Shown here piece after piece: positions 37,596-64,000 of a stretch of DNA of 64,000 nucleotides. Below the pieces are notes generated by a model. That model made no database searches. It was not told the origin of the DNA and saw only the letters and a list, made by a program, of their open reading frames with translations. The stretch spans positions 295,184-359,183 of the forward strand of contig CASIAI010000002.1 in assembly GCA_949372655.1 (NCBI GenBank). The letters are read 5' to 3'. Source of the DNA: Candidatus Poseidoniaceae archaeon (GTDB lineage Archaea > Thermoplasmatota > Poseidoniia > Poseidoniales > Poseidoniaceae). Each line of letters begins with the position of its first letter. Within the stretch, counting starts at the first letter, position 1. Position numbers and translations under genes: made by a program.

Positions 37596-40500
37596 TTATT
37601 CTAACTGTTCTGCATAATATTCAGCAAGTTGGTCTATCGTCCATCCTTGGTCTAGATATGACTGAATAGTTTCTTCATCCCATCCTGGGCATTTAGCTAG
37701 GTCTTCAGATGAAAGGTTTGACCCAGAACTCACTTCTTCGCTTTCTGAACCACTGCCATCAAGAACTGGCATATCCCATTGAGTCTCAGGTGCTAAGCCC
37801 GAACTCTCAGCAAGCATTCTTTCCTGTTCCTCAATTGAAACCAAGTCTTTTTCAGATTCAGCCTTTGATTCTAATTGCTTGAGAATTCCAAATGCTCCAG
37901 CGGCAAGTATTCCTGCAGCAAGCATTATCCAGAGCATAGTCTTGGTTCCAGAGTCATCATTTTCTCCCTTACTTGCATCAGCTAAATCCATACGTTGCTT
38001 ATTGGAACAACCTTCTGCATCGGTAGGTGTGCCTTCTGGAGTTTCAGAACAAATATCAACTTCGTTTAGAATCCCATCTCCATCTTCATCGCCAACAGGG
38101 TCTAATGTTTGATTATCAGTTGAGTTTCCTGGTATTTCGATCCCTCCCAAATCACACCCTAGAGCAGTAGATTCATTGACACCATCTCCATCAGCATCTG
38201 CCAAATTCAATGCATCATAAGGAGATACAGTAACTATACTCGGGTCAAGCGCTGTACTTTGTGCCCAAGCGATTTCAACATCATCTCTAATACAATCTCC
38301 ATCGGTATCTGCTAATAGTGGATGGCCACCTTGGTTATATTCAATTAGATTAGATAATCCATCACCGTCAGCGTCATACATGTCTTCAGTGATTCCTGAG
38401 TCTAGTACTCTCTTGGTACGGTTTAATCCATTAGGTAATTCCCACTTGTCAATCAGTCCATCTTGATCGGTATCAGTCACATTATCAACTCGATTCCAAT
38501 CAACATTCCATGCATCTTTGTAGATTTGAGCGATAGTTTCAGAATGGATAATAACACCCATCTCACGATTTCTATTCATTGCCGAACTTCCCAAATTTAT
38601 CGAGGAAACTAAAACACTCTTTTCATCAACAATGATTCCTTTGTTGTGAAGTTTTGAAACATCATCATCTTCACTCATCACAACTGCTGATGCATCTAAG
38701 CCTTCAGTTCCATTCCATACTTCATTCAGTAAGTCAACTATGCCTTGGTCATCATCATCTAAGTATGCACCATTGATTATGACTCGTACTGCTACACCGC
38801 GCTTGGCTGCCTGATACATCGATTGAATGACTGGACTTTCTTGACCCCAACCCCAATACCAATCGACATCTAGGGTTTGCTGTGAAAGCACTACTTCATA
38901 GTAAGCACTATCAATCAAATTAGTAATTCCAGTAATACAATTATTAGGGCAGGTTAGAACTTCTCCGCTTGCATCCACAGAGTATGAAGTTGCTAATCCA
39001 CCACTGCTTATCGATTGAATACCGGGCATTGTCCAATCAGATGGCTCATCAGAGGATTTGTATTCCGTAATGTGGTCTAGTTGAGAATTAGTGTCAAAGT
39101 CCATTTGCTGCATCACAACTTCAGCTAGTTGCTGATTATCAATTATGACACTCCACTCAACATTGCCTCTAACTCCAGGTGCAGGTTGTGATGATGATTT
39201 CCAGTTTCCTGAAGACATCCAAGTACTATTTCCGTCTCTAACTGCAACTTTACTGTGAATGTATAGGTATGGTTGGTCACTTTCGCCGCCAAACCAGTAT
39301 ACTTCAGCCCCAGCATTGTCAAGTTCACTAGCAAATCCATATTGTAACTGCATATCATTATATGACCAAATATTTGTACATGCACAGCCTTCATCGAGTA
39401 GAACTTTTACTTCTATACCATTAGAAGCGGCATTGATCAAGGCTTGAACCAATCTTGGTTCTTGCATTTGATAGATATGTACTTCAAGTGAAGTTGTAGC
39501 CCCATCAATCCAATTTAGTAAGTCCAACAAGCCGTCTTGTGGTCCTATTAGTGGAGTGATTGTACTCATTCCACTAAATTGTGTCTCGGAGCAAAAGTTA
39601 CTTGCACCCAAAACACTCCATCGGTAATTCCAATCTATCGCAGTATCTGTATCTGGTAGATAATCACAACCATCTCCCCTGACATATACTATCATGTTGA
39701 TGCCATTACGTGGTGGGCTTACAGATTGTCCAGACCATCCTTCTGCTTGAGCAGGGCCGTTATCATAGACAACGGAGTCAGATATCATACCGCTTGCATC
39801 TTTGATATGTATCGCAGCACCAGAGTCAGGGATGAGGATATTTTCTCCTAATACTTCAACAAATGATAGATATTCGATATTATCTAATGCGATAGGTGAT
39901 GATTCGCTCACCCATATTCCAATTGCATCATTGGCCAAAACAACAGATGATTCTGTAGGGATTGTTAACTGATCTATGGTATAGGTGTTGGTCGTTCCAC
40001 CTGCACTAACATCGAAAGTCCATCCAGTCAAATATGCTACTGAATCTCCAATGTTACGAATTTCCATAAATTCTGAGTTGCTGACATCATCATTGCTACC
40101 TTGTGTCATTAGTCTAGTGAATATGATGTCACCTGCATTAGCAAGATTGCTTGAATCAGGATTGGCTAGTGCCGGAGTACTCCAAGGTGAATCCGCCCAA
40201 CCTTGTGAAGAGATGATCTTAGACTGGCATAGAGAATTAGTTCCGATGGAAAAGTGGTCAATCATATCACCATCAGGGTTGTATAGCGATATATTGTGGT
40301 CATCCATGAGTAATGATTTATCAAATTTAACAATTGCATATTCGCCGCTAGCCAAAGTTGTAGATTGATTATTAGGGGCCGTTAAGTCAGTACCTATGTC
40401 ACCAATTGTTGCCATTGTAGTGATAAATTCCCGATGACCAAGTGATGAGTCTACTCTCCAACGACTTAGATTGATCGGAGCGGAGTCATTGTTATAGAAT

Positions 40501-42551
40501 TCGATCCAATCAAATTCAGAATTTGAAGAACAAGATGCCATAAATTCAGTGATTAGTAGATTATCTGAGTCGGAGTATTGTGGCCAAATTGGATTAACTT
40601 CGTTTGGCGTCTGCCAGGCTGAAGGAACCCACCCTGAAAGGCCACTTGCTGTCTGGGAGGCGTAGCCTGAATGACTGGTAAGAGGAGGAACTAATGATTG
40701 ATTTTGATTGGTTTCATTCCATCCTGCAAGGTCGACGATTGAACCCATTGAATCAACGATAGTAATGATATCATTACTTTGTTTGAGATAGAACGAACTC
40801 GTTCCATTTAATGCAATTAAGGCTACTTCACCCGGTTGGATCAAAGTATCAGATTGTAAAGGTAGATTGAATGCATCAATAACGAAGTTTCGATTGTTGG
40901 CTTTTAATTTCCAACCATCAACATCAGCTACAGAAGAATCATTATTGTATATCTCAATCCATTCTCCAAGTGGCCAACTTTGGGTATCTGCGCCTGTACT
41001 ATCAGCCATTATTTCTGTGAATGTTATATCGCTAGTAGAAACTGGTCCAGAGCCTGGTTCAGGTTGCCCAGGGGTAATCCAAGATGATGGCATCCAAGCA
41101 TTTGCTGGATTTATATTTCGAATTAGAGATGTATTTACTCCATAATCATTAGAATACCATGCTACATCGTTTATCGAGCCGCTTGTATCCATTAGGATTA
41201 GATGATTATAGTAATCCCACAATCTAGTTTCGCCAGTAAATTGTACTAATCTTCTTCCATCTGGAGCAATATCAGTAGAACCTTGTGTATTGTTAAAAAC
41301 CAAAGAAACAGGGTCAAGTGTTGTTACATTGCCCATCCCATCAGTAATAGTCCATCCAAGGAGGTCGACTGTACTTGTTCCTGAGTTGTGAATTTCAATC
41401 CACTCTCCATCCGGGAATGTTGTTCCATTAGAATAAGAGTGCGGCATTACTTCAGTAAAGCGAACATCGGCAGGTGAAGGTGATAGTTCATCGATAGGGA
41501 GAGGATTGGTTTGGTTTAAACTTGGATAGGAAGAATAAAACATACTTTCAGTAGTTGAATCATAGGAAAGTGAGTAACCATTGACAGTATCAGTCCAGTC
41601 GACAATATGAGTAATACTACCATTTGGTAGTTTTAGAGATAATTGCTCGACACCGTTATTGAGTAATCCGGAATTAGAAGAACCATTTACTGTAATGATT
41701 CTTGTATGGCCGCCTGCTATGTAGAAGGATTCAGTAATTAAACTATCAGAGCCAATCAAATGAGTAACATCTATCATGATTTGATTTCCTGCATTATCTT
41801 CAACATGCCAACCAGTCAAGTCAATTACTTCGCTACCAGTATTTAGAATCTCAATCCATTCTCCACCAGGCCAAACATCACTATCCTCAGAAGGCCAAGG
41901 ATTTGACATGACTTCATTAATTTTGATATCTGTTGAATAAATTGTTGGTCCACCACTTGGTGCACCTCCATTATCGCCTCCAGGAGTTGTATTATTTGTC
42001 TCAACCCAGTACGCAGTAGGGTCGTTAGGGTCTTCTTGCAAACTGGTGCCTGAAGGTGCGCTACTTGAGAATGTCCATGAGGCAACATCTATCTGACTTC
42101 CCAATGAATCAAATAGAGTAATTATATCGTTAGAGTTGGAAAGGTAAAACATAGCATTAGACATTGCATTTCTAGAGATAACCATGTAATCTCCCGGCGA
42201 AATTGTCCACGAAGCTGAATTTGCAGAATCATAATCAACTATGGTAGTCGAATTGAAAATCATCTGCTTTTGAACCTTATTTTCAATGTACCAGCCGCTA
42301 ATATCTACGCTCATAGTACCATTGTTATGAATTTCCACCCACTCGCCAGCAGGCCATGCAGCATTGTCATTTCCATTTGGGTTTGGTAGTACTTCATTGA
42401 GGCAAACATCTCCTAGGCAAGCAATAGAACTAGATTGTAAAATCACCTCTTGAGATTCAAGAGTACTAGATTCGTTTGACTCGAATAAAGGTACCAATGA
42501 CGAAATAAGCATTAGGGAAACAAGCGCGAAAGGTAATTTTCGTGTGTGCAT
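37596..42551 (-). CDS. giant anchored exoprotein: six lamin-tail domains + two-HKD phospholipase-D/nuclease-type domain + TSP3 repeats + TM + cytoplasmic tail
   Basis: 1651 aa. Signal peptide. Six LTD signatures (e.g. NEVLPNP..GEWVEIHNNG..DISGWYI, GEWIEILNTG..DLTGWHV, GEWIEIHNSG..LLGWTI, GEWIEIYNND..VDGWKL, FDWIEFYNND..LSRWRV, SEFMEIRNIG..LTGWTF). HKD motifs YIHSKVAVRDG..SSGNW (about 39230-39270) and LHNKGIIVDEK..SSINL (about 38630-38660). TM MLWIMLAAGILAAGAFGIL. Confidence 0.8.
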   Translation of the reverse strand: MHTRKLPFALVSLMLISSLVPLFESNESSTLESQEVILQSSSIACLGDVCLNEVLPNPNGNDNAAWPAGEWVEIHNNGTMSVDISGWYIENKVQKQMIFNSTTIVDYDSANSASWTISPGDYMVISRNAMSNAMFYLSNSNDIITLFDSLGSQIDVASWTFSSSAPSGTSLQEDPNDPTAYWVETNNTTPGGDNGGAPSGGPTIYSTDIKINEVMSNPWPSEDSDVWPGGEWIEILNTGSEVIDLTGWHVEDNAGNQIMIDVTHLIGSDSLITESFYIAGGHTRIITVNGSSNSGLLNNGVEQLSLKLPNGSITHIVDWTDTVNGYSLSYDSTTESMFYSSYPSLNQTNPLPIDELSPSPADVRFTEVMPHSYSNGTTFPDGEWIEIHNSGTSTVDLLGWTITDGMGNVTTLDPVSLVFNNTQGSTDIAPDGRRLVQFTGETRLWDYYNHLILMDTSGSINDVAWYSNDYGVNTSLIRNINPANAWMPSSWITPGQPEPGSGPVSTSDITFTEIMADSTGADTQSWPLGEWIEIYNNDSSVADVDGWKLKANNRNFVIDAFNLPLQSDTLIQPGEVALIALNGTSSFYLKQSNDIITIVDSMGSIVDLAGWNETNQNQSLVPPLTSHSGYASQTASGLSGWVPSAWQTPNEVNPIWPQYSDSDNLLITEFMASCSSNSEFDWIEFYNNDSAPINLSRWRVDSSLGHREFITTMATIGDIGTDLTAPNNQSTTLASGEYAIVKFDKSLLMDDHNISLYNPDGDMIDHFSIGTNSLCQSKIISSQGWADSPWSTPALANPDSSNLANAGDIIFTRLMTQGSNDDVSNSEFMEIRNIGDSVAYLTGWTFDVSAGGTTNTYTIDQLTIPTESSVVLANDAIGIWVSESSPIALDNIEYLSFVEVLGENILIPDSGAAIHIKDASGMISDSVVYDNGPAQAEGWSGQSVSPPRNGINMIVYVRGDGCDYLPDTDTAIDWNYRWSVLGASNFCSETQFSGMSTITPLIGPQDGLLDLLNWIDGATTSLEVHIYQMQEPRLVQALINAASNGIEVKVLLDEGCACTNIWSYNDMQLQYGFASELDNAGAEVYWFGGESDQPYLYIHSKVAVRDGNSTWMSSGNWKSSSQPAPGVRGNVEWSVIIDNQQLAEVVMQQMDFDTNSQLDHITEYKSSDEPSDWTMPGIQSISSGGLATSYSVDASGEVLTCPNNCITGITNLIDSAYYEVVLSQQTLDVDWYWGWGQESPVIQSMYQAAKRGVAVRVIINGAYLDDDDQGIVDLLNEVWNGTEGLDASAVVMSEDDDVSKLHNKGIIVDEKSVLVSSINLGSSAMNRNREMGVIIHSETIAQIYKDAWNVDWNRVDNVTDTDQDGLIDKWELPNGLNRTKRVLDSGITEDMYDADGDGLSNLIEYNQGGHPLLADTDGDCIRDDVEIAWAQSTALDPSIVTVSPYDALNLADADGDGVNESTALGCDLGGIEIPGNSTDNQTLDPVGDEDGDGILNEVDICSETPEGTPTDAEGCSNKQRMDLADASKGENDDSGTKTMLWIMLAAGILAAGAFGILKQLESKAESEKDLVSIEEQERMLAESSGLAPETQWDMPVLDGSGSESEEVSSGSNLSSEDLAKCPGWDEETIQSYLDQGWTIDQLAEYYAEQLE

Positions 42552-47526: not shown

Positions 47527-48483
47527 GTGGCATGGTTGATAGGTGAGACTGTGTCAATGTTCAAGCGTGCGTCCTTTCTTTTAGCTTTATACATGATTTC
47601 GATGTTATCCGTAGCCGCTCCAGCAGCTGCTCAGATTCCTACTGCGGCCATCTCAGTCACATGTGCTCCGATTAATATTAACGTTGAAGTAAAACCTGGT
47701 TCAACATACTCAGGTTTCACTACTTGTACAGCAACCAATCCTACTCAATACCAAGAGAAGATTAGTATTATCGTAACAAGCGATAACCTTGCTACTGCCG
47801 CTCCTGGTGATATGTATATTGGTGGAGGCCAAGATGTAGATTTCCAAATTTCTGTTCGGGCTACACCATACATGGCTATGCAAAGCCGTACATTATCAGT
47901 ATCAGCAACAGTACAGGAGATTCAAAGTGCACCACCGCCCAATTCGGCATCCTCTCAAAACAATATGATTGTTAACATTCTACAATACTCACTTGTTCAA
48001 GTTGAGGCAGTTGAACCATTCGTACAACTTATGCCAAAGACTGACAAGAATTTTGAATTCAAGGTATACAACCTTGGTAATCAAAAAGATTTCATGAAGG
48101 TTGGAATTACTGAATCTTACAGAGAAGAATTGGAAGAAGCAGGGTTTACAATCAATCTACCTTCGGTTAAGGTTCAAATCGATGCAATTCCAACTCCTAC
48201 CAATGTCAGAGTTCAAGCAAGAACTCCTAAGACCCAAGGTTGGAGCGATGCTTACCACGTTCTAGACTTCTATGCGGAATCAGAGTTTGCTTGTAACAAC
48301 GGTGGCTGTATTAGAGAGTCACAGATGATCACAGTTTATGTCCGTGGAGTTTATCTCCCAGGTTTCGAGTTAATCCCTGCTCTTTCAATGGTGGCACTAG
48401 CAGCAGCAGTTGTTGGTCGTAGATTCCTACCTGATGATGATGAATTCGAAGAGGAGTGGCGAGAAGCTGCTCCAGGCATTTGA
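47527..48483 (+). CDS. secreted CARDB-like beta-sandwich protein with PGF-like C-terminal anchor and acidic tail
   Basis: Signal peptide MFKRASFLLALYMISMLSVAAPAAAQ (probable start at Met 47557). FEFKVYNLGNQKDFMKV resembles CARDB/NEW3-type domains. C-terminus LPGFELIPALSMVALAAAVVGRRF followed by DDDEFEEEW. Confidence 0.65.
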   Translation: MAWLIGETVSMFKRASFLLALYMISMLSVAAPAAAQIPTAAISVTCAPININVEVKPGSTYSGFTTCTATNPTQYQEKISIIVTSDNLATAAPGDMYIGGGQDVDFQISVRATPYMAMQSRTLSVSATVQEIQSAPPPNSASSQNNMIVNILQYSLVQVEAVEPFVQLMPKTDKNFEFKVYNLGNQKDFMKVGITESYREELEEAGFTINLPSVKVQIDAIPTPTNVRVQARTPKTQGWSDAYHVLDFYAESEFACNNGGCIRESQMITVYVRGVYLPGFELIPALSMVALAAAVVGRRFLPDDDEFEEEWREAAPGI

Positions 48484-53653: not shown

Positions 53654-53830
53654 ATATTTGAACTCGGCGGTAGTTATTTGACTTAAAAAAATACTCATTT
53701 AACCCCCAAATTCAAAGTACTGCGTCTAAAGTGGAAGATGTCTGCGTGCGTCATCATTAAAAGATGACCCAAAGTGGCGAAGTCGCTTCAGCCTATCGGC
53801 TGTCGCGAAAACAAGACAGAGGGAAAAAAT

Positions 53831-56800
53831 ATGGAAGAAAAAACAGGTAGTCCGCGAACAGCACCGGCACCACTGCTAGGATGGCTAATTGCCCCCCTTG
53901 CAGTATTGCTGGCAATCGCAGCCATCAAGGTCGTAGGAATCAACTTCGATCTGGATTTAGACAATATGATGCCGATGCTCGTCATCGTCATCGCAGGAAT
54001 TTTGGGTACGGTTCCACGTATCCTAAAAAACAACGATATGATTCCACTTGGTTCTTCAACTCTTTCCCTCGCAACACTCGGTGTTGCCATGGTTGGACAT
54101 CAAGCAATAACTCACCTTTCAGATTTGGGTGCATTCACCGCGCTTCAATTCTTAATTGTGACATTCGTTGTTTACTACTTTGACTCCAGGGCTCGTTATG
54201 AGTGGTCTACAGTCACTATTTTTACTGCAATTGGCCTAAACATAGGTATGGTTGCATCTAATTTCTACAATGGAGAATTAGTAACTATTTTTGAGAGACA
54301 AGAAGGTGGTTTCATCTCTACTCTTAATTTGCAGAGGCAAGCATTAGGTTACATCTTTTTCAGTTACTTGATGATTTTTACACTTTTGGGATTGTTAGTC
54401 GCAGTTCTTACTAGAGGTGTTCTAAACGCAGAAAGTGATGAAGGATGGTTTGGAAACATTAGCTCTTCTCAGGGTCTTTGGAATAAATCAACACTTCCTT
54501 TACAAATTGGAATACTAGTATGGATTCTCGCCCATGTTGCGAGTCTCTGGCATTTCGAATCTGTCTCTATGTCAGATAAACTTGGAATTACTAGCGTTGA
54601 AGGATATCACGGCCATTTTGGATTTTGGGCGGCTTTCTTCACAGGTCTTGTAGCAGTTTTAGTTGCAGGAATGTTTTCAGAAAGATGGCACACAAGAGCA
54701 ATGCTAACAGGTTCCATGTGGACACTTTACCAAATTTCATCTTGGTATGAGAAGGGCATGTGGGAAGCAAAACAACTTGATGGAACATGGGGTGCCTTGA
54801 TTTGGTTAGGTATCACCTTCTTCATATGTGTAGGAATATACATGATTTCAACCCACGAAAAGTGGGGTGGATGGTCTAACAAAGAAGACCATGAAATAAG
54901 CGGAGCAAGAAAGTTCTGGAATGCTCACTGGTCTGGAATAATGATTGGAATGGCCTTCTTCTTCGGTCTTGTTATTCGTATTCAATGGTATGCTGTACCG
55001 TCCATGAATGCTTATGGAACAGGCAACTGGGATATGACCGGTGGTTCTGACCCATGGTACATGAAGAGAGTTGTAGATTACATTATTGCTAACGATGCAC
55101 ATCTTATCATGGATGCTGATAGGGCTTATCCATTAGGAGGAATTAATCCTAGGCCACCTTTGTTTACTTGGTCTATTGCGATTCTGTCAATGTTACTTGA
55201 ACCAATGTTGGGTGATGACGCAGTATGGTACGCAATGCTTGGTCTTCCAGCAGTTTACGGTGCATTAACAATCTTCCCAATTGCTACTATCGCTAAAGAC
55301 CACTTTGGCAAGTCAACTGGTGTTATTGCAGCTTGGTTAATTTCATTCATGCCTGCACATGTTAGTCACTCTACTTGGGCTCTAGCCGACCACGATGCCT
55401 TTGTTATGCTATTTATCTCACTAGGTATCATGTATTGGATGAAGGCAATGAAGTATTCTGGTTCTGATCGACTAACAAGAAACTCATCACCTAGGTTATC
55501 ATCGATTTTAACTTCCTTTGGTGTAGTTGCTAGAGAGCGAAAAGCAGCAATGTCTTTTGCTATTCTTGCGGGAGTTTCCTTTGGTGTAGCATCTCTTGGT
55601 TGGAAAGGTTTCGTTGTTGGACCGAGCATTTTGTTCTTGGCCTACTTCGTACAAGTCGCATTGAATATGTTTAGGAGAAGAGATTCGACTACTATCAATA
55701 CTCTGTTCTTGACAATGTTAGGTGTTAACCTTCTGATGGCAATACCATTCTATGGGCATCCAGAGTTTGATTTGATTTTCAATGGAACCGGCCTACAACC
55801 ATTCTTGTTTGTACTCGGGTTCTCAGTTGTAATTGCATATATTACCACTGGATTTAGAGATAAGCCTTGGTTATTAGTTCTTGGAACATTAACAGTTGCA
55901 GCATTGATTTTCTTTACCATTCTTTGGACTCTCAAGCAATTCGATATTTCCAATGCGTGGGATGTTCTATTCACAGGTAGTGGATATTTCACAAAGACTA
56001 AGATTTTTGGAACTGTTGCTGAAGCAAATCCACCAGATAGAGGTCAGTTATTTGCCCAACTTGGACCGATTGTTCTTGTTCTTGCTTTGACAATGGGTAT
56101 CTACAGTTTGTGGTCTTCGCTAAGAACACGTAATCAATCACACCTCGTTTTCGGAATTTGGATTTTCGCAGCCACATACATGGCATGGACTGCTGCAAGA
56201 TTTATGTTCAATGCAACACCTGCTGTTGCCATACTTGGCGCATGGGGAATTTCTGCACTATGGCGTAAGGCAAATTGGGATGGTCTTATGAAAGCATGGA
56301 AGAAATTCGGTATTCGTACACCTGCAGATAGAATTACAGGTGCCAGAAAAGCGATATGGAAAACTCCTTCATTCTCTGCTATCTTATTGATCTTCGTACT
56401 TCTAGGTGGACAGCAGTTCACCTATGGTCTAGATGCAGCAATTCCAAGTTCCGCTGAGTCAGAAGATGAACTTGACGAAACCATCTTTAATTTGATTCCC
56501 GACGCTCTAAGATGGGAGTTGGCAGGATTCTCAATTCTAGATAGCAGTTCATATTCAGGTAACTGGTATCTTGGTTCCTTTGGTTCAGGATATAATGATC
56601 AAGGTTGGAATGGTGCATATGAATGGCTTGCTAACCAAGATGCAGGCGATGCATATTCCGATAAGCCAGCTTTCGTTTCATGGTGGGACTACGGATTCCA
56701 AGCACTAGATACTGGAGAACATCCATCGGTATCTGATAACTTCCAATCCGGGATTCCAGCATCTGGAAATATGCTTCTTGCTAGAAATCAAGATGATTTG

Positions 56801-59800
56801 ATTTCTATGTTCGTTTGGCAACTGGCACAAGGTGACTTGAGTTACTCCGTATCAAAGGGAGATGGCTATGAGTTGACTAGCGGATATGAGAATATATTAG
56901 AAAATCACCTTTCAGCAGAACAATTGGAACAGTTCAAAGATTCACAAGAAAATGTGGACTTTGATGAAATGAAAGAAATGATTGATGATTATTCATTCAA
57001 GGTAATTCAAACCAATCGCGAAGTAGTAATGGCTGAAGGTCATCACAGAGCGGATGGAGTTGCAGATACATCAGCAAGTTTCTGGAGACTATATGAAGAC
57101 GGAGAGAGAATTCTTTGTGATGAAGTAGTTTCTAGTTCCTGTTCAGATGGTGATTGGTCAACCTTTGATGACGCTAATTTGACATTCAATAATGAGGTGC
57201 GTTCAGGTCAAGAATCAACTTATGATACCACCCATTATATCTTTGGAGACTATTGGTATACTGAAGATTTGAGATCAGAATTTTCTTCAGTATCTACGCA
57301 TATCCATAGAAAGAATACTCGTTTAGCATTAGCAGTTCAATTATTGTCAGACAGCCTTGATTCTGATGGAATAACAAATCTTTACCACGACCTTATTGGC
57401 CTAGAAGATTATTATCATGTTCAAGATTATGAAGGTCTACCAGGAGATATGATCTCTAGAGACCACGAAATCCGATATTTTGCAATCGATAACAGACTAT
57501 ACCCGAGAGCCGGTAAATATACTCAAGATTATAATTATAATCAAGGTCAACCAATGGGGATTTTCGGAGCACCTACTATTCTTAGTGGACAAGACATTTC
57601 TACATTCATGAATGAAGTTTACGAAACTACTCGAGATGGAATTCCTCAAGAACTAACACGTGAACAAGTTGATGATGCAATGACTGATGACTTCCTTGAC
57701 CAACAAGCGGGACTCGAAATAGACCCATTACAAGTTGAGGACGTTAGAGTTGACCACAATGCTGCTTTCTTTGACACTATGCTATCACGAGCATACGTCG
57801 GTTATGGAGCTTCATCATTGGGAGTCAATACCGACTCGAGTAACCCTCAACCATCTCAACACTTCGGTCAATCCGGAACACCTGGAAGTTACTTACAACA
57901 GGCTCTTCCTATGCCTGGAGCCATGATGAATCATTTTGTTATCGCCAACTGGTACAGTGAAGATTCTAACCTTTCTTTCGGACAAACTAACACACTTGTC
58001 AAGATTCTAAAGTACTATTCTGGTGCTGAAGTATCTGGTCAAGTCACCATGTCTGATAATGGTGATTCTCTTCCTGGAGTTAGACTTTTGATTGAAAGAG
58101 ACGCATTCTCAGGAGAAGGTTCCGAAGATTTAGACAATGATACTTATTGGATTCCTATCGGATATACTGATGCAGATGAAGATGGAAAATGGTCTTTTGA
58201 TGCTCCTGCTGGAAAGATACGAGTTAGCGCATTTACTGGTACTCTTAACTTTACAACAGCTCGTAATTCAATTTCAGATGGTTCATTTGCACAAAATTTG
58301 AATGATGTTTTGAATGAGTTCAATACTGAAAGGTCTGTGAACGAAGTTACAGCTATTCTAGGTAATGTTGCAAATATGACTTGGTTAGGCGAAGTCCAAA
58401 TGAATGTTACCGGTGAGCAAGCCAATAGAACTGATATTGTTACCGAGACCATGGATATCGAAGTATCTAGTTCTGGAATCTCGGGTATGGTTTCATGGAC
58501 TGGCGATGAACTGTTCAATGGCGATCCTCTAGTCAATACCGACATAGTTTTGCGTAGTACCTTTGGAATTTCTGATGATGTCACCGTAACTACTACAAAT
58601 GGTTCTTTTACTACAGATGAGACACGAATTGTTCAAGGTACAGGGGAAGTTACTTTCACTGAGAATGGAACATTCGTAAGCGAAGGAATCGCTTCTGTTG
58701 TAGACTTCTCAGGTACATTTACTAGAGATATTAACGATGGCAGAACATTCGTTGCTAACGGTACATGGGATGGAACTGGGTCGATTAAGGCTTCTTGGAT
58801 CAATATGGATAGTTCAGACGTTGTAGCATGTGATGTAGATCCTGATAATAGTGCAAATATCACCATGCCAGTTAACCAAACCATATGTTTGAAGGATGCA
58901 ACAGGAACTTTACCTGTGTACATGATAGATGGAGTTTTAGAGGCTAATGGTAGATTCACATCAGTTGGAAAAACTGTTCTAGTTCAAGAAATTGAACTTT
59001 CTACATTTGAAGGAATAGGAAGCTTTGTAGGAACTGGTACATTTAATGGAACAGGTCAATTTACTGGAATTGGGGATTTCTCTGGTGACTTAGTAAAGCC
59101 TGGTTCCTTCTACCAGACAGGATTAGTGCCTGGTGATTATGAAGTATTTGCGCAACTTGAAAATGGTCGAGAAGTGAAATTACCTCAGATTGTGAGCGTC
59201 GGTTTGACTCCGAGTTATGATGTTGAAGTAACGATCCCTGGTTCGATACTTCGTGGAAATATCACAGACAGCGCTGGAGAAGTCATCGAAGGATTAGAGA
59301 ATTTTGAATGGGATGATAAATCTTTAGACGGAGCTGCTTTACAAATACCTGTAAACGAAACTGGAAACTATAATTATGGTCCAATTTCAACAGGTGATTA
59401 TCAAGTTAGAATCGATGTAGATAGCGATGGATTCTTTGAAGTTAATCAGACAATCTTTGTTAATAATGTGTCCAATGTATTGACTCCTATATCTGTAATA
59501 CAGGATATGTATGACATTTCTATACAACTTACTTCCCCAGTCAATGACTCGAATGGAGAAGATTTGATAGAATTAGGAAACCGTACTCTTCAACTACAAT
59601 CTGATTTGTCAGAAATGGCAAAGACTGTTGAAAGTGATGAGAATGGAATGATTAAGGCTGAATTAATCCCAGGAAACTACAATCTGTTTGATTCTCTTTC
59701 CGAAGATTATCTACTATTCGAATCGTTTGAATTAGTCGATGAAAACTTGTCTTTAACAGTTGATTATTCAATATCTTCAACCGTTTCAGGTAAATTATTG

Positions 59801-62800
59801 GCTTACACCATGGAATTCGACGAGAACTGGACTACTGCTGAAGCAGAAAATAATAGTACTCCAGCAAGCAATTCTATCATAGTCTTTACCTCCGGTAATT
59901 TGACTCTCGAAACTATTGCTGATGTGGAGGGTGATTTCACTGTCAAACTACCTGGTGATCTAAATTTCCAGATGATTGCATCCAGTCCTGGAAACTTTGC
60001 AGGTGGTAGTCAATATTTCGAAATCAATAATTCTTCATCTTTTGATTTAGGTACGATTTACTTAGAAGAACTCCAAACTGTAAATGGAATATTATTTGCT
60101 TACAATAATAATTCTACATGGGATTCATCTCTCTTTGAAGATTATTCCCCTACAGTTACTGCTACCAATGCAGATGGTGTGTACTGGGAAACTGTAATCT
60201 CAAATATTGGTTCCTTTACAATATCTCTTCCTAAGGATACCTATGACCTAACTATCGATGATGAAGCACTAACTGTATCTCCACTATTGGGCCACATTGT
60301 AACTGATAACTTCACAACAAATTCTGTTGAGTTGACAGCTAACCCGGAATCTAAATCTGTAAGGTTCGATATATTCATTGATGCTGCTGGAAACGGTTCA
60401 CTAGATTTCGGAACTCCAGTGAATTCAAACTTCACTTTGAGTAGTTCGCTTCTGAGTGAGGATTTGACTAATGTTACATTATCAGATTTCACCACACTCG
60501 GTGAGATTTCCTTGGACTTACTACCTGGAACATATACGCTTACAGTCGAGAATTATCCTATCGGTACAGAAAATGCTACCGATTACAATAATATGTTTGT
60601 TTCCAAGAATATTTATGTTTCTCTAGACGATGAACAGCAAAACTTCACCATATCGTTTGAGAATCAGTGGTTGGTTGAAGGAGTGCTAAAGGACAGCAAT
60701 GGTATTGAACTCAAGGCTGACTTCTCATTGTATAACGAGTCAAGAAATGACTGGCATGATATCTCAAGTGATTTAACTGGAGAATTCTCATCATATGTTG
60801 AAGCAGGTGATTGGGTAGTAATTGTCTCTCCAGTAGTTGGACAGAATAATACTACTTTACTTAGAATGCCATTGACAGTTAGTGATGATTCTGCACTTCG
60901 TACAGGATTAGTATTAGAAATGGTCGAGTCTATGCAAATTACCATGCAACTCTTAGAAAACTTGACTGAGGAACCAGTAAATGGTGCTAGAGTTATTGCA
61001 GTTAGTAATGATGGGTTTGGTAATGTCACTTTGAAATCTTCAAGTCTTGAAGGAAATATTTCTGATGACTTAATGCCAGGTTCTTGGAGCCTATTCTTGG
61101 ATAACCAAGGAACTAATCGCTCACTATCGTTAGATACCTATGGTACTCCATTCTCAATATTAGATGCAGTCAATGACTCAGTGGAATTAGGTACAGTCTA
61201 TACAGAAGTCACTGTTTTGATTCAAGGAACTGTCTACTGGGATTCAGATGGTGATAATATTGACTTGGCTGATGAATGGATCTTTGGAGCGAATGTCACA
61301 GTTAAAGATAATACTTCAACAGGATTTAACCAAACAATATCGACAGATGAAGATGGAGATTGGGAACTATTTGTTCCTATTCGAGATATCTACAATGTAA
61401 CTGTAGAAAAGTTAGGTTATGGAACCGTTTACTATGATATGGATAATCAATCAGGCTTTGTCGTGGAAGATTATGCGGTGACTCAAGATATATTGATGGA
61501 AGCAGAAAATGTCGATGTCAGTGGAACTATCCAAACCTCTCTATCTAATCCGGACCTTCAACTTGATGGCGCATCAATTACACTTTATCCAAGTTCAGAC
61601 TCAGATTTAGAGCCTCTAAACGTCATAGGAACATACCTTGACGGGACACTTTCGTGGGACGAAAACATAATTCCAGGAATATGGACAGTTGTTGTTCAGA
61701 GTCAAAATGTTGATGAGAATGGTGGTGGAGTCGCAGTAGGATTCTTGAATGCCAATATATCCAGTGGTGGAGTTCTAGAAATGAATATGACTACTGGTGG
61801 ATGGGTTGAAATTTCAACAAATTGGGAAGATATCAATCTAAATGAGCACCATACAGGTTCATCTGATGCAGAAGGATATGCATTTATACAATCAGATGTA
61901 GAAGTTTCCTTCGACTTAGAACTTGGATCATCATGGAATTACAGTGTTGATTCAAATGGAGAAATTAGAGTATTGATGCCATTAGGAACTGTTAAGTTAA
62001 CTTCTGAATTTACTACAATACAACATCAGAGAAATATTTCTATGGACTATTCCTTCTTCTCTTCGCAAGATATTGAGCAAGGAATATTAGATGTTGAAAT
62101 GGATTATTCTCGTAGAATTAATTCAGAAACTTCCATCAGTATTGATATGAATTCAATCGTAAATGCGACATTTAACAGTGTAGAAGAACTTACTGCAATC
62201 AAAGATGGAGATGATTACAAGGTAATTGAATTTGATGTTGGTGCCATTTATGAAGGTTCTGAGAATAGTGATGTATTCATTGTCACCGGTTCGGTACAAG
62301 CTAACATGGACTCTGAACTATGGAGTCTTGAGTTCTTTAACGGTACTGATTGGGTTTCTTCAGTAGAAGTTACTATGGGTATCGGTGAATCTTTATCTGA
62401 TGATTCAGTATCTAATTCGAGTATTTCGAAGGCAAGAATTGTAATGCCAAATGCAAGTTCAGTTACGAGTTTCGAAGATGGGCATAGTATCAAGATTCGC
62501 GTAGAGAATGACGGTGGAATTTCAAGTTCGAAATTCATTACTGTTTCAATACCAGAAACCTATGGGATTGAAATCTCAGATATTATTGATGAGACTGGTG
62601 TTTCACCTGGTGGAACGAGTTCTTTCTCTTTTACAATAACCAATACTGGTAATGGTAATGACAATGTTAAGATTGAACAAACCAATACTCTTGGAACTGG
62701 ATGGCAAATCACGCCTGAATTGACCTATCTGAATATCTCCAAGGGTGCATCAATATCTCAACCTTTCACAGTATTTGCGCCTTCTGACTTTACCTCCGGT

Positions 62801-63337
62801 GAAGTCCAAGCATGGTTTACCGTTTCAAGTGAAGATGGTATTACTAACACTACGGTGGAAGTTGATATTTATTCAGCAAGGATTTCTCTTAGTGTCGATG
62901 AATCATCTGTTTATGAAAAGTCATATCAAAATGAAATCGGTGGCGGAGAATTAATTATTCCTGTTGAAAATTCCGGATTTAGAGCTGCAGGAACAGTAGT
63001 AGTTACTGCAAACCGAATTGATGATACAGGAACAGTTCTTGAATCATTCACTCCACAGACTATTTCAGTGGGCGCTGGACAGACAGTTGATGCAATATTC
63101 CAACTCAATGCAACTTCCAAGACAGATCAACGTTATGCAGTTAGTGTCGATGTAGAAGGAGAGGATAAGAACTTCACTACAGGAGAGGTTGAATCTTTCG
63201 ATTTCGACCTCCCAACTAAACTGAATGTTGAAAAGGATTCATCCGTATGGCTTATGGTGGTTATCGTAGCTTTGACTATTCTTGTCGCCTATGGTGGCTT
63301 GAAGGTAGCAAGAAATAAATCGTCGACTAGATTCTGA
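53831..63337 (+). CDS. aglB: giant fusion protein: extra polytopic N-terminal domain + AglB/STT3 oligosaccharyltransferase core + about 1,780-aa beta-sandwich repeat region + C-terminal TM
   Basis: A single uninterrupted ORF (open from 53774; ATG at 53831 follows a purine-rich stretch). GGSDPWYMKR first-loop acidic motif at about 55040-55070. WALADHDAF. WWDYGF at 56681-56698. CarboxypepD_reg-like and CARDB-like modules (e.g. SFSFTITNTGNGNDNVKIEQ) run from about 58000. Terminal TM VWLMVVIVALTILVAYGGL. Confidence 0.85.
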   Translation: MEEKTGSPRTAPAPLLGWLIAPLAVLLAIAAIKVVGINFDLDLDNMMPMLVIVIAGILGTVPRILKNNDMIPLGSSTLSLATLGVAMVGHQAITHLSDLGAFTALQFLIVTFVVYYFDSRARYEWSTVTIFTAIGLNIGMVASNFYNGELVTIFERQEGGFISTLNLQRQALGYIFFSYLMIFTLLGLLVAVLTRGVLNAESDEGWFGNISSSQGLWNKSTLPLQIGILVWILAHVASLWHFESVSMSDKLGITSVEGYHGHFGFWAAFFTGLVAVLVAGMFSERWHTRAMLTGSMWTLYQISSWYEKGMWEAKQLDGTWGALIWLGITFFICVGIYMISTHEKWGGWSNKEDHEISGARKFWNAHWSGIMIGMAFFFGLVIRIQWYAVPSMNAYGTGNWDMTGGSDPWYMKRVVDYIIANDAHLIMDADRAYPLGGINPRPPLFTWSIAILSMLLEPMLGDDAVWYAMLGLPAVYGALTIFPIATIAKDHFGKSTGVIAAWLISFMPAHVSHSTWALADHDAFVMLFISLGIMYWMKAMKYSGSDRLTRNSSPRLSSILTSFGVVARERKAAMSFAILAGVSFGVASLGWKGFVVGPSILFLAYFVQVALNMFRRRDSTTINTLFLTMLGVNLLMAIPFYGHPEFDLIFNGTGLQPFLFVLGFSVVIAYITTGFRDKPWLLVLGTLTVAALIFFTILWTLKQFDISNAWDVLFTGSGYFTKTKIFGTVAEANPPDRGQLFAQLGPIVLVLALTMGIYSLWSSLRTRNQSHLVFGIWIFAATYMAWTAARFMFNATPAVAILGAWGISALWRKANWDGLMKAWKKFGIRTPADRITGARKAIWKTPSFSAILLIFVLLGGQQFTYGLDAAIPSSAESEDELDETIFNLIPDALRWELAGFSILDSSSYSGNWYLGSFGSGYNDQGWNGAYEWLANQDAGDAYSDKPAFVSWWDYGFQALDTGEHPSVSDNFQSGIPASGNMLLARNQDDLISMFVWQLAQGDLSYSVSKGDGYELTSGYENILENHLSAEQLEQFKDSQENVDFDEMKEMIDDYSFKVIQTNREVVMAEGHHRADGVADTSASFWRLYEDGERILCDEVVSSSCSDGDWSTFDDANLTFNNEVRSGQESTYDTTHYIFGDYWYTEDLRSEFSSVSTHIHRKNTRLALAVQLLSDSLDSDGITNLYHDLIGLEDYYHVQDYEGLPGDMISRDHEIRYFAIDNRLYPRAGKYTQDYNYNQGQPMGIFGAPTILSGQDISTFMNEVYETTRDGIPQELTREQVDDAMTDDFLDQQAGLEIDPLQVEDVRVDHNAAFFDTMLSRAYVGYGASSLGVNTDSSNPQPSQHFGQSGTPGSYLQQALPMPGAMMNHFVIANWYSEDSNLSFGQTNTLVKILKYYSGAEVSGQVTMSDNGDSLPGVRLLIERDAFSGEGSEDLDNDTYWIPIGYTDADEDGKWSFDAPAGKIRVSAFTGTLNFTTARNSISDGSFAQNLNDVLNEFNTERSVNEVTAILGNVANMTWLGEVQMNVTGEQANRTDIVTETMDIEVSSSGISGMVSWTGDELFNGDPLVNTDIVLRSTFGISDDVTVTTTNGSFTTDETRIVQGTGEVTFTENGTFVSEGIASVVDFSGTFTRDINDGRTFVANGTWDGTGSIKASWINMDSSDVVACDVDPDNSANITMPVNQTICLKDATGTLPVYMIDGVLEANGRFTSVGKTVLVQEIELSTFEGIGSFVGTGTFNGTGQFTGIGDFSGDLVKPGSFYQTGLVPGDYEVFAQLENGREVKLPQIVSVGLTPSYDVEVTIPGSILRGNITDSAGEVIEGLENFEWDDKSLDGAALQIPVNETGNYNYGPISTGDYQVRIDVDSDGFFEVNQTIFVNNVSNVLTPISVIQDMYDISIQLTSPVNDSNGEDLIELGNRTLQLQSDLSEMAKTVESDENGMIKAELIPGNYNLFDSLSEDYLLFESFELVDENLSLTVDYSISSTVSGKLLAYTMEFDENWTTAEAENNSTPASNSIIVFTSGNLTLETIADVEGDFTVKLPGDLNFQMIASSPGNFAGGSQYFEINNSSSFDLGTIYLEELQTVNGILFAYNNNSTWDSSLFEDYSPTVTATNADGVYWETVISNIGSFTISLPKDTYDLTIDDEALTVSPLLGHIVTDNFTTNSVELTANPESKSVRFDIFIDAAGNGSLDFGTPVNSNFTLSSSLLSEDLTNVTLSDFTTLGEISLDLLPGTYTLTVENYPIGTENATDYNNMFVSKNIYVSLDDEQQNFTISFENQWLVEGVLKDSNGIELKADFSLYNESRNDWHDISSDLTGEFSSYVEAGDWVVIVSPVVGQNNTTLLRMPLTVSDDSALRTGLVLEMVESMQITMQLLENLTEEPVNGARVIAVSNDGFGNVTLKSSSLEGNISDDLMPGSWSLFLDNQGTNRSLSLDTYGTPFSILDAVNDSVELGTVYTEVTVLIQGTVYWDSDGDNIDLADEWIFGANVTVKDNTSTGFNQTISTDEDGDWELFVPIRDIYNVTVEKLGYGTVYYDMDNQSGFVVEDYAVTQDILMEAENVDVSGTIQTSLSNPDLQLDGASITLYPSSDSDLEPLNVIGTYLDGTLSWDENIIPGIWTVVVQSQNVDENGGGVAVGFLNANISSGGVLEMNMTTGGWVEISTNWEDINLNEHHTGSSDAEGYAFIQSDVEVSFDLELGSSWNYSVDSNGEIRVLMPLGTVKLTSEFTTIQHQRNISMDYSFFSSQDIEQGILDVEMDYSRRINSETSISIDMNSIVNATFNSVEELTAIKDGDDYKVIEFDVGAIYEGSENSDVFIVTGSVQANMDSELWSLEFFNGTDWVSSVEVTMGIGESLSDDSVSNSSISKARIVMPNASSVTSFEDGHSIKIRVENDGGISSSKFITVSIPETYGIEISDIIDETGVSPGGTSSFSFTITNTGNGNDNVKIEQTNTLGTGWQITPELTYLNISKGASISQPFTVFAPSDFTSGEVQAWFTVSSEDGITNTTVEVDIYSARISLSVDESSVYEKSYQNEIGGGELIIPVENSGFRAAGTVVVTANRIDDTGTVLESFTPQTISVGAGQTVDAIFQLNATSKTDQRYAVSVDVEGEDKNFTTGEVESFDFDLPTKLNVEKDSSVWLMVVIVALTILVAYGGLKVARNKSSTRF

Positions 63338-63519
63338 TTTGAGACAAGTCATTAAATGCTGTACCCCGAAGTTGAGTCTGTAGTGGTGAAGCCTTGGGTA
63401 GTTTAGAGAATATCGAACTTCTTCCTGAACCGGATGATGACCGGATTCTTTCAGCCATTGATCCATCCGTTGTTGGCTTTCAAGATGAATGGAGAGCTGA
63501 GGTTACAGGTTGGGCACCG

Positions 63520-64000
63520 ATGATTGCGAAGCCAATACATCGGGTGAGAAGTCGCAGATTTTTGTTCACTAATCTCGTATTATTTGCTATCCTTGCATCA
63601 TTGATGCTTTGGGTTTGGCAATCAGGATTTATGTTCATTGAATTGCCCCCCCCTAAATCGGAGTGGGCCATTGAACAGGCTGGATTTGAAGATGAAATTT
63701 TGAATGGATTAACCGGTGAAGGGATTAGGGTATGTATCGTAGATACAGGAATTGATATTTCACATTCAGCATTTCAAGGATTTCAGGTAGTTTTCAATGA
63801 TATGATTTCTAATTCTGCCAGTCCAGTAGATTACGGGGCAATTGCTCATGGTACTTTGATGGCAGGCATTTTGATATCTCAATCTCACCAAACGGGAGTC
63901 GCTCCTGGAATCACTTTGGGAGTGGTTGCGGCTTTGGATGATGACGGTTCAGGTATGAATACGGCTGGCGAGCAGACTATATCGGATGCTATTGAATGGT
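63520..64000 (+). CDS. membrane-anchored subtilisin-like (S8) serine protease, 3'-truncated by the window end
   Basis: Not in the ORF track because no stop lies within the window. This frame is open from 63373, with the first ATG at 63520. Signal-anchor FLFTNLVLFAILASLMLWVW. Catalytic Asp motif VCIVDTGID and His motif HGTLMAGI. Confidence 0.75.
   Translation, partial: MIAKPIHRVRSRRFLFTNLVLFAILASLMLWVWQSGFMFIELPPPKSEWAIEQAGFEDEILNGLTGEGIRVCIVDTGIDISHSAFQGFQVVFNDMISNSASPVDYGAIAHGTLMAGILISQSHQTGVAPGITLGVVAALDDDGSGMNTAGEQTISDAIEW

What the first reader, a model, noticed from the sequence alone, without database searches (positions are those of the whole stretch)
53831..63337. AglB/STT3 oligosaccharyltransferase embedded in a 3,187-codon ORF with large extensions on both sides
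Seen: one uninterrupted ORF of 9.56 kb.
- The STT3 hallmarks occupy only the middle: the SDPWY acidic loop near 55050 and WWDYGF at 56681-56698.
- About 400 residues with roughly ten additional predicted TM helices precede the canonical first AglB helix.
- About 1,780 residues of repeated CarboxypepD_reg/CARDB-like beta-sandwich modules follow the catalytic domain and end in a TM helix.
- The C-terminal region is densely populated with N-x-S/T sequons (NFT, NVT, NGS, NQT, NNS and others, dozens by eye).

Established: characterised AglB/PglB/STT3 enzymes are roughly 600-1000 aa, with 13 TM helices plus one soluble domain.

Inference: this could be an oligosaccharyltransferase covalently tethered to its own heavily N-glycosylated S-layer-like or stalk substrate. 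Alternatively it could be a polyprotein that is later cleaved; an S8 protease gene follows immediately. I do not know of a described precedent for either.
Basis: partly seen in the sequence, partly recalled or inferred. Interest (0 to 1): 0.8.

Follow-up and report, generated by a model that had tools for sequence, protein, structure and literature searches.

The report
Giant 24-helix oligosaccharyltransferase of marine archaea
The enzyme that attaches sugar chains to proteins in Marine Group II archaea is a single 3,168-residue protein, about three times the usual size, and its ten extra membrane helices and long sugar-site-rich outer tail are kept across the whole order but appear undescribed.

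Summary
Window 53831..63337 (+) is one ORF of 3,168 codons, or 3,187 from an upstream GTG. An STT3/AglB core sits at residues about 367-1400, and every catalytic motif I could recognise is invariant.

- **N-terminal extension:** about 366 residues, modelled as ten membrane helices. It has no detectable relative outside this family in 1.84 billion representative proteins or in the PDB.
- **C-terminal extension:** about 1,735 acidic residues, apparently beta-sandwich domains. It carries 57-58 N-x-S/T sequons against 23 in a reverse-motif control. It ends in a membrane helix and an invariant [R/K]F terminus.

It is not an assembly artefact. The identical protein occurs in at least three independent assemblies, and 49 of 52 complete orthologous ORFs are 3,183-3,233 codons long. 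426 stretches in the species-representative genomes encode a relative; the 80 listed are almost all titled Candidatus Poseidoniales or unclassified archaeal MAGs. A relative at 33% identity keeps the same length and the same neighbours.

All regions evolve under purifying selection (dN/dS 0.03-0.19). A membrane-anchored S8 protease follows directly in 57 of 60 informative loci.

I read it as an active oligosaccharyltransferase with lineage-specific accessory modules. Whether the tail is its own substrate, an envelope component or is cleaved off is untested. New variant of a known kind; moderately high interest.

The parts
53831..63337 (+). Giant AglB gene: 3,168 codons plus stop. An alternative GTG start lies at 53774.
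   Evidence: The identical protein occurs in three or more independent assemblies. 49 of 52 complete orthologous ORFs are 3,183-3,233 codons long.
53831..54928 (+). N-terminal extension, residues 1-366: an orphan module of ten membrane helices. Invariant polar residues include R122, E124, R195, E284 and R360.
   Evidence: The AF2 model shows ten helices. Only 73 hits in 1.84 billion representative proteins; complete ones are 3,146-3,194 aa and the shorter ones checked are partial. No PDB match by sequence or fold. No relation to the STT3 core and no internal duplication. dN/dS is 0.07-0.11.
54929..56440 (+). STT3/AglB membrane core, residues 367-870. It contains the EL1 Asp D407 (55049-55051), D520-H-D522 (55388-55396) and T728-V-A-E731 (56012-56023).
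   Evidence: Pfam PF02516 and TIGR04154. Aligns to A. fulgidus AglB-L, 3WAJ. Motifs are invariant. dN/dS is about 0.04.
56441..58030 (+). Extracellular AglB-type soluble domain, residues 871-1400. It holds WWDYG at 56681-56695 and a less conserved, helix-rich insert at about residues 1000-1190.
   Evidence: Aligns to the C-terminal domains of A. fulgidus AglB-S, 3VGP and 3VU0. Weak AglB_core-like Pfam hit. Conservation profile. AF2 segment at pLDDT 60-85.
58031..59230 (+). Proximal ectodomain, residues 1401-1800. It starts with a CarboxypepD_reg-like domain and is strongly conserved (identity to the query 0.56-0.68). It includes the G-rich motif GTGTFNGTGxFxGxGxFSG.
   Evidence: dN/dS is 0.05-0.11. 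11 sequons, z = 3.2.
59231..63235 (+). Distal ectodomain, residues 1801-3135: acidic and variable, read as a beta-sandwich array. Pfam-type hits are SpaA-like 1915-1952, CarboxypepD_reg 2108-2143 and 2480-2537, and CARDB/Ig-like about 2915-3006. It carries 46 sequons.
   Evidence: Identity to the query is 0.33-0.48. dN/dS is 0.10-0.19.
63236..63334 (+). C-terminal membrane helix (residues 3139-3157) and basic tail ending in an invariant [R/K]F-COOH.
   Evidence: dN/dS is 0.04-0.07. No other ORF in the window ends this way.
63394..64000 (+). Start of a membrane-anchored S8 subtilase, 403 aa in full and cut by the window end. It lies 56 nt downstream with no oligo-T tract in the spacer.
   Evidence: Directly downstream on the same strand in 57 of 60 informative loci, including a relative at 33% identity.

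Best explanation
This is the AglB oligosaccharyltransferase of a Marine Group IIa archaeon (Candidatus Poseidoniaceae), in a form shared across the order Poseidoniales.

**What I infer it does.**
- The central AglB module (residues about 367-1400) most likely works like any STT3-family enzyme. It binds a lipid-linked glycan and a metal ion through D407, D520/D522 and E731. It holds the N-x-S/T sequon with the WWDYG loop and transfers the glycan to Asn on the outer face of the membrane.
- Two lineage-specific modules are permanently fused to it. The first is an N-terminal bundle of ten membrane helices of unknown role, which keeps the N-in topology. The second is an acidic ectodomain of about 1,735 residues, read as beta-sandwich domains, which returns to the membrane through a C-terminal helix with a conserved cytoplasmic [R/K]F end.
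- The protein would therefore have about 24 membrane helices, with a large extracellular loop anchored at both ends.
- The ectodomain is probably N-glycosylated itself, by its own or a neighbouring catalytic module, and probably forms part of the cell surface.

**Status of each step.**
- Shown: the architecture, its conservation, the intact catalytic motifs, purifying selection on every part, the sequon enrichment and the conserved gene neighbourhood.
- Inferred: catalytic activity, glycosylation of the tail, the topology and the role of both extensions.
For: **STT3 identity and catalytic motifs.**
- Pfam STT3 scores above its gathering cut-off, and TIGR04154 covers profile positions 2-572.
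- The best solved relatives are A. fulgidus AglB-L 3WAJ/5GMY, at E = 4e-9 with the single sequence and 5e-13 with the family profile.
- D407, D520-H-D522, T728-x-A-E731 and W951-W-D-Y-G955 are invariant across 26 sequences down to 33% identity.

**Real gene, single ORF.**
- The identical 3,168-aa protein occurs in three or more independent assemblies.
- The best 120 homologous clusters are 2,829-3,227 aa, nearly all covering the whole query.
- 49 of 52 complete orthologous ORFs are 3,183-3,233 codons long.
- Complete members of the most divergent clusters are 3,156-3,276 aa.
- 426 stretches in the species-representative genomes encode a relative; the 80 listed are almost all Poseidoniales or unclassified archaeal MAGs.

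**Every part is constrained.** dN/dS is 0.03-0.19 in every region.

**Topology.** Ten helices in the AF2 model, basic loops on alternate sides, and a basic C-terminal tail.

**Tail.**
- 57-58 sequons against 23 for the reverse motif. The enrichment is kept in all 20 homologues checked, with 18 conserved positions.
- The composition is acidic, 16% D+E.
- Domain and fold hits are beta-sandwich types.

**Expression.** A gene annotated aglB in a Marine Group IIb genome is differentially transcribed in the field (PMC9723583).
Against: - No biochemical or proteomic data exist for this family.
- The residues aligned to the DK motif of A. fulgidus AglB-S read A-(S/T)-G-N-M-L-L-A, which is neither a canonical DxxK nor an MxxI motif.
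- TIGR04154 scores 167 bits, below its 450-bit cut-off.
- The AF2 model of residues 868-2067 is poor (mean pLDDT 49), so the fold of residues 1300-1800 is unknown.
- Residues 2068-3135 were not modelled at all.
- I could not test whether these genomes carry a second, ordinary AglB.
- The transcribed aglB in PMC9723583 was not shown to be this giant gene.
Confidence: 0.7

Rival explanations
1. Polyprotein. The gene is translated as one chain, and the adjacent membrane-anchored S8 subtilase then cuts it. This releases a conventional-sized AglB (with or without the N-terminal module) and a separate membrane-anchored surface glycoprotein.
For: - The S8 gene lies directly downstream on the same strand in 57 of 60 informative loci, and also in a relative at 33% identity.
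- The protease has an N-terminal membrane helix, an intact D/H/S triad, and its best NCBIfam match is the membrane-anchored mycosins.
- The spacer is 56 nt and has no T-tract.
Against: - No linker or low-complexity junction is present. Residues 1200-1800, where a cut would be expected, are among the most conserved (0.56-0.77 identity) with dN/dS 0.03-0.11.
- Fusion has been maintained for the whole history of the order. That is not needed if the parts act separately.
- The protease could equally process the 1,400-1,520-aa beta-helix surface protein encoded next to it.
Confidence: 0.15
2. The ectodomain is chiefly an adhesin or envelope spacer whose function is independent of glycosylation chemistry. 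AglB would simply serve as its membrane anchor, or the tail would position the enzyme under a surface layer.
For: - Foldseek hits are to adhesins, pilins, alpha-2-macroglobulin MG domains and a haloarchaeal S-layer protein.
- The distal part evolves faster, as exposed surface proteins do.
- Adhesion proteins are a noted MGII trait (PMC6461757).
Against: - The Foldseek matches have very low TM-scores on a low-confidence model and only indicate tandem beta-sandwiches.
- No specific binding domain was found.
- The length is fixed to within about 3% across the order, unlike typical repeat-variable adhesins.
Confidence: 0.12
3. Assembly or annotation artefact: a chimeric join or hidden frameshift fusing separate genes. 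Or a catalytically dead pseudo-enzyme.
For: Three of 52 complete orthologous loci are interrupted: an in-frame stop in L033, an N run with frameshift in L053, and a short ORF in L085.
Against: - The identical protein occurs in independent ENA and Logan assemblies.
- More than 400 orthologous stretches exist, and 49 of 52 complete ORFs are full-length.
- Every region is under purifying selection.
- All recognisable catalytic residues are invariant.
Confidence: 0.02

Closest known systems
Archaeoglobus fulgidus AglB-L (PDB 3WAJ, 5GMY) and other characterised archaeal AglB enzymes
   Same: Same family (Pfam PF02516). The membrane core aligns over AfAglB residues 5-449. The EL1 Asp, the second acidic motif, a TIXE-type motif and WWDYG are all present, followed by an extracellular soluble domain.
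   Different: AfAglB-L is 875 aa with 13 membrane helices. This protein is 3,168 aa, with ten extra N-terminal helices, an additional ectodomain of about 1,735 residues and a C-terminal anchor helix. The second motif is D-H-D where AfAglB-L has D-H-H at the aligned positions. The DK/MI position is non-canonical. From memory, the largest characterised AglB enzymes (haloarchaeal) are about 1,000-1,050 aa.
TIGR04154, the archaeosortase A system-associated STT3 subfamily
   Same: Best NCBIfam match, covering profile positions 2-572 of 831. The organism does encode proteins with a PGF-CTERM-like end in the same window.
   Different: It scores 167 bits against a 450-bit cut-off, so it is not a member by NCBI's criterion. 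The protein's own C-terminus is not PGF-CTERM.
Eukaryotic multi-subunit OST complex (STT3 plus ribophorins/Ost1, OST48/Wbp1, Swp1 and others)
   Same: A functional analogy only. In both, the catalytic STT3 is surrounded by many additional membrane helices and by beta-sandwich domains on the non-cytoplasmic side that are anchored by C-terminal helices. This rests on established knowledge of the yeast and human OST structures.
   Different: Here everything is on one polypeptide. No sequence similarity to any accessory subunit was detected. The ectodomain is far longer.
Tandem Ig-like or transthyretin-like surface proteins (B. anthracis TIE, MpIBP adhesin, Gram-positive pilins, Haloferax S-layer protein 7PTP)
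   Same: Beads-on-a-string beta-sandwich fold hits for residues about 1800-2067. Acidic, sequon-rich and membrane-anchored like archaeal surface glycoproteins.
   Different: None of those proteins is fused to an enzyme of the glycosylation pathway. There is no signal peptide, no sortase or archaeosortase signal, and the length is fixed.

Membership tests
STT3/AglB/PglB oligosaccharyltransferases (GT66, Pfam PF02516) | Significant match to the STT3 membrane-domain profile | tested here: met
   PF02516 scores 50.0 bits against a cut-off of 24.5, over residues 404-802. TIGR04154 matches residues 370-986 at E = 5.5e-49. 3WAJ matches at E = 5e-13 with the family profile.
STT3/AglB/PglB oligosaccharyltransferases (GT66, Pfam PF02516) | Catalytic acidic residue in external loop 1 (first DXD-type motif) | tested here: met
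   GGSD407PWY aligns to GGND47PWY of AfAglB-L and is invariant in 26 sequences.
STT3/AglB/PglB oligosaccharyltransferases (GT66, Pfam PF02516) | Second metal-binding motif (DxD, DxH or DxE) | tested here: met
   A-D520-H-D522 aligns to N-D-H-H of AfAglB-L and is invariant.
STT3/AglB/PglB oligosaccharyltransferases (GT66, Pfam PF02516) | TIXE/SVSE motif in external loop 5 | tested here: met
   T728-V/I-A-E731 is invariant and lies between hydrophobic segments 686-704 and 740-758. HMMER's register against 3WAJ is imprecise here.
STT3/AglB/PglB oligosaccharyltransferases (GT66, Pfam PF02516) | WWDXG motif in the soluble domain | tested here: met
   WWDYG at residues 951-955 is invariant and aligns to the WWDYG of 3WAJ, 3VGP and 3VU0.
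STT3/AglB/PglB oligosaccharyltransferases (GT66, Pfam PF02516) | DK (DxxK) or MI (MxxI) motif forming the Ser/Thr pocket | tested here: inconclusive
   The position aligned to DAAK of AfAglB-S reads A-(S/T)-G-N, with the N invariant. No structural model of this part is usable.
STT3/AglB/PglB oligosaccharyltransferases (GT66, Pfam PF02516) | Transfer of a lipid-linked glycan to Asn of N-x-S/T | not testable with these tools
   Needs a biochemical assay or complementation.
TIGR04154 archaeosortase A-associated STT3 subfamily | Score at or above NCBI's curated cut-off | tested here: not met
   167.3 bits against 450.
Archaeal S-layer glycoproteins | Secreted protein with a C-terminal sorting or anchor signal (such as PGF-CTERM) that forms a 2D lattice | tested here: not met
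   There is no PGF motif; the end is TM plus [R/K]F. Lattice formation cannot be tested. ORF 30124..33306 in the same window does carry a PGF-CTERM-like end and 4.9 sequons per 100 aa.
Proteolytically processed polyproteins | Defined cleavage between functional units | not testable with these tools
   The only evidence is indirect: conserved adjacency of an S8 protease and no linker at the junction.
Eukaryote-type OST accessory subunits (ribophorin I/II, OST48, DAD1, OST3/6) | Sequence homology of the extra modules to those subunits | tested here: not met
   No Pfam hit at E <= 1 for the N-terminal extension or the tail segments. No such PDB hit with the family profile. No fold hit for the N-terminal extension.

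The most novel reading that the evidence does not exclude
The Poseidoniales enzyme is a single-chain 'holo-OST'. The N-terminal ten-helix module and the C-terminal anchor helix would pack around the STT3 core, as accessory subunits do in eukaryotic OST. The nascent 1,735-residue tail would be glycosylated in cis by the catalytic module that was inserted into the membrane just before it. The mature molecule would then be both the cell's oligosaccharyltransferase and a major glycosylated structural element of the still-unknown MGII cell envelope. A still more speculative version is that the ten-helix module handles or flips the lipid-linked glycan.
Probability: 0.15. Interest if true: 0.8.

Novelty: new variant of a known kind. 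Interest (0 to 1): 0.62.

Why it matters
Marine Group II archaea are the most abundant planktonic archaea in surface oceans. They are uncultured and their cell envelope is uncharacterised (PMC6461757, PMC6336850).

- **An order-wide exception to the textbook format.** The key enzyme of N-glycosylation here is fixed at about 3,170-3,280 residues and about 24 membrane helices. That departs from the usual format of 13 membrane helices plus one soluble domain.
- **A candidate envelope component.** The fused, sequon-rich ectodomain is a concrete target for metaproteomics, glycoproteomics or labelling.
- **A link to OST evolution.** The extra membrane module and the re-anchored tail bear on how accessory functions are added to OST. 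In eukaryotes that was achieved with separate subunits.
- **A practical marker.** The N-terminal module is unique to this family, so it can serve as a specific marker for the lineage.

Tried and rejected
- **Internal sequence repeats in the tail.** jackhmmer from three seed domains against 120 homologues found only one extra copy, 2000-2072 matching 2466-2549. The domains are too diverged to call tandem repeats.
- **Origin of the N-terminal extension.** hhalign against the STT3 core and between its two halves gave probabilities of 0.5% or less. A PDB profile search gave nothing. Foldseek's best hit was E = 0.43 with TM below 0.25. Weak, non-significant hits to MFS and Wzx transporters were not taken as evidence.
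- **Stand-alone N-terminal extension.** The 359-aa hit P0191 ends in an adapter-like LLYTSPSPRD. P0143 and P0173 carry 'partial' annotations, and complete members of the P0173 cluster are 3,276 aa.
- **AF2 of residues 868-2067.** With only 10 sequences the mean pLDDT was 49. Only residues about 997-1187 and 1807-2067 are usable, so I could not superpose the soluble domain on AglB structures or assign the DK/MI motif.
- **Family-profile search of the PDB.** It found only STT3-type hits and nothing for the tail.
- **Literature.** Six full-text searches and six papers were read. No paper in the searchable library links AglB or STT3 with MGII/Poseidoniales, beyond one differential-expression table entry. 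Subscription-only papers could not be checked.
- **A second, conventional AglB in these genomes.** No tool allowed a whole-genome scan, and the hit lists are saturated by the giant family.
Full report
**1. The observation**

Window 53774..63337 (+) is one uninterrupted reading frame of 3,187 codons from a GTG. The first ATG is at 53831 and gives 3,168 residues. Most orthologues begin at the equivalent MEEK/MEQK, so I use 53831 as the start.

- Pfam finds STT3 (PF02516) at residues 404-802, scoring 50 bits against a cut-off of 24.5. It also finds CarboxypepD_reg above its cut-off.
- NCBIfam finds the archaeal STT3 model TIGR04154 over residues 370-986, at 167 bits. That is below the 450-bit cut-off.
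D407 of GGSDPWY is at nt 55049-55051 and WWDYG is at nt 56681-56695.

**2. Not an artefact**

- The identical 3,168-aa protein is encoded on contigs from at least three independent assemblies: ERZ4119921, ERZ16273744 and ERR10946522.
- A search of 5.8 billion proteins returned 449 relatives. The best 120 clusters, at 47-100% identity, are 2,829-3,227 aa and nearly all cover the whole query.
- A scan of one genome per GTDB species found 426 stretches that encode a relative. The 80 listed are almost all titled Candidatus Poseidoniales, Poseidoniaceae or Poseidonia, or are unclassified archaeal MAGs. The closest, at 84%, is an MGIIa genome.
- Among those 80 loci, 52 contain the whole ORF, and 49 of these are 3,183-3,233 codons long. 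The three exceptions are one in-frame stop, one N run with a frameshift, and one shortened ORF.
- A relative at only 33% identity is 3,156 aa. Complete members of the most divergent cluster are 3,276 aa.
- dN/dS against five orthologues is 0.03-0.19 in every region. Synonymous sites are near saturation, so these ratios are approximate.

**3. Anatomy**

*(a) Residues 1-366.*
- An AlphaFold2 model (pLDDT 69, pTM 0.70) gives ten long helices.
- Basic residues cluster in alternate loops. This fits an N-in topology that delivers AglB TM1 in its normal orientation.
- A profile of this module searched against 1.84 billion representative proteins found only 73 hits. The complete ones are 3,146-3,194 aa, and the shorter ones I checked are truncated genes.
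- It has no PDB relative by sequence or by fold.
- It shows no similarity to the STT3 core and no internal duplication.

*(b) Residues 367-870.*
- This is the STT3 membrane core, aligned to A. fulgidus AglB-L (3WAJ/5GMY).
- D407, D520-H-D522 and T728-x-A-E731 are invariant in 26 sequences down to 33% identity.

*(c) Residues 871-1400.*
- This is the extracellular AglB-type domain carrying the invariant WWDYG. It aligns to the AglB-S C-terminal domains 3VGP and 3VU0.
- The residues aligned to their DK motif read A-(S/T)-G-N, which is neither the DK nor the MI consensus.
- A less conserved, helix-rich insert lies at about residues 1000-1190.

*(d) Residues 1401-1800.*
- This proximal ectodomain is strongly conserved and starts with a CarboxypepD_reg-like domain.

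*(e) Residues 1801-3135.*
- This part is faster-evolving and acidic, with 16% D+E and 3.4% K+R.
- It gives CarboxypepD_reg, SpaA-like, SdrD_B-like and CARDB/Ig-like hits.
- The only part modelled with usable confidence (residues 1807-2067) is all beta. Foldseek matches it to tandem Ig-like adhesins, pilins, macroglobulin domains and a haloarchaeal S-layer protein.
- The domains are not recognisable sequence repeats of each other.

*(f) Residues 3136-3168.*
- A hydrophobic helix is followed by a basic tail that ends in Phe in 119 of 119 full-length homologues, preceded by R or K.
- This segment is as constrained as the catalytic core, with dN/dS 0.04-0.07.
- No other ORF of the window ends this way.

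**4. Sequons**

- The tail has 57-58 N-x-S/T sites against 23 for the reverse motif S/T-x-N. Shuffle z-scores are 3.2-4.7 in three of four sub-regions.
- The membrane parts and the AglB soluble domain are not enriched.
- The excess is present in all 20 homologues examined, at 35-58 forward against 14-39 reverse. Eighteen sequon columns are kept in at least 80% of them.
- Most other ORFs in the window show no enrichment. The exception is 30124..33306, with 52 sequons in 1,060 aa.

**5. Neighbourhood**

- The order is CDP-archaeol synthase, purD, giant AglB, a membrane-anchored S8 subtilase (403-421 aa), a surface protein of 1,400-1,520 aa, and an AAA_16/TPR protein. In relatives the surface protein gives weak Beta_helix/Big_7 matches.
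- This order recurs at 100%, 52%, 49% and 33% identity.
- purD is directly upstream in 61 of 61 informative loci. The S8 gene is directly downstream in 57 of 60. In the other three the AglB ORF is interrupted and an S8 match lies further downstream.
- The subtilase has an N-terminal membrane helix and an intact D/H/S triad, and is most similar to mycosins.
- The 56-nt spacer has no T-tract.
- The downstream surface protein has a signal peptide and a C-terminal anchor but no sequon excess.

**6. Interpretation**

The best-supported reading is an active AglB. Its catalytic machinery is intact and strongly constrained, and two lineage-specific modules were added in the ancestor of the order and kept ever since.

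By topology the C-terminal 2,270 residues lie outside the cell and are tied to the membrane at both ends. They are very probably N-glycosylated. The catalytic module is synthesised and inserted before the tail emerges, so cis-glycosylation during translocation is mechanistically attractive, but it is untested.

The role of the ten-helix module is unknown. The polyprotein idea draws on the conserved protease neighbour. It is weakened by the absence of any linker and by the high conservation across the presumed junction. The S-layer idea is not supported by any specific feature. A separate sequon-rich protein with a PGF-CTERM-like end in the same window fits that role better.

**7. Comparison and novelty**

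The protein meets every testable defining feature of the STT3/AglB family except the DK/MI motif, which is inconclusive. It fails the cut-off of the TIGR04154 subfamily.

The solved AglB, PglB and STT3 chains returned here are 696-935 aa. Nothing comparable to the N-terminal module or the re-anchored ectodomain is described in the papers I could search, and no paper links AglB with MGII beyond a transcript table entry. Database records call these proteins hypothetical, 'STT3 domain-containing' or 'glycosyltransferase family 39'.

I class it as a new variant of a known kind.

Noticed in passing
window 30124..33306 (-), inside the low-GC stretch at about 30-34 kb, with tRNA-Asn at 33951-34026: A 1,060-aa secreted protein with thrombospondin type 3 repeats. 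It has 52 N-x-S/T sequons (4.9 per 100 aa) and a PGF-CTERM-like end (…GLPGFQVSLLIVSMIFAAIIISKRD). It lies in a 31-32% GC island, against about 40% for the rest of the window. It looks like a variable major surface glycoprotein and archaeosortase substrate.
   Followed up: partly
window 63236..63334 (last 33 codons of the giant gene): The C-terminus ends in an invariant Phe preceded by R or K in 119 of 119 full-length homologues (consensus YGGxKxARxxSxx[RK]F). dN/dS is as low as in the catalytic core. This may be a sorting or docking signal, and no other ORF in the window has it.
   Followed up: partly
L001 20786..25348 (just beyond the window end), and the same position in L003, L004 and L005: A conserved protein of 1,400-1,520 aa lies after the S8 protease. 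It has a signal peptide, a C-terminal membrane helix and a Q-rich cytoplasmic tail, and is not sequon-enriched. Orthologues give weak Beta_helix/Big_7 matches. An AAA_16/TPR (MalT-like) protein always follows it.
   Followed up: partly
window 37596..42551 (-): A 1,651-aa protein with six lamin-tail domains and two PLD-like domains, probably a secreted or surface phosphodiesterase or nuclease.
   Followed up: no
window 47527..48483 (+): A 318-aa protein with no Pfam match that carries a PGF-like motif followed by a hydrophobic stretch near its C-terminus (…YLPGFELIPALSMVALAAAVVGRR…). It may be a second archaeosortase substrate.
   Followed up: no
L033, L053 and L085 (GTDB species-representative MAGs): The giant gene is interrupted in three genomes. 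L033 has a single in-frame stop near codon 1943. L053 has an N run plus a frameshift. L085 has an ORF that ends at 2,693 aa. These are either sequencing or assembly errors or rare pseudogenes.
   Followed up: partly
L069 (CAXRAI010000019.1): A contig carrying the Poseidoniales giant AglB belongs to a MAG titled Salinimicrobium sp., a bacterium. It is probably a mis-binned contig.
   Followed up: no
P0191 (359 aa, representative-library hit): This fragment of the N-terminal extension ends in LLYTSPSPRD. To me that looks like translated sequencing-adapter sequence, so the record is probably chimeric and not a stand-alone gene.
   Followed up: no
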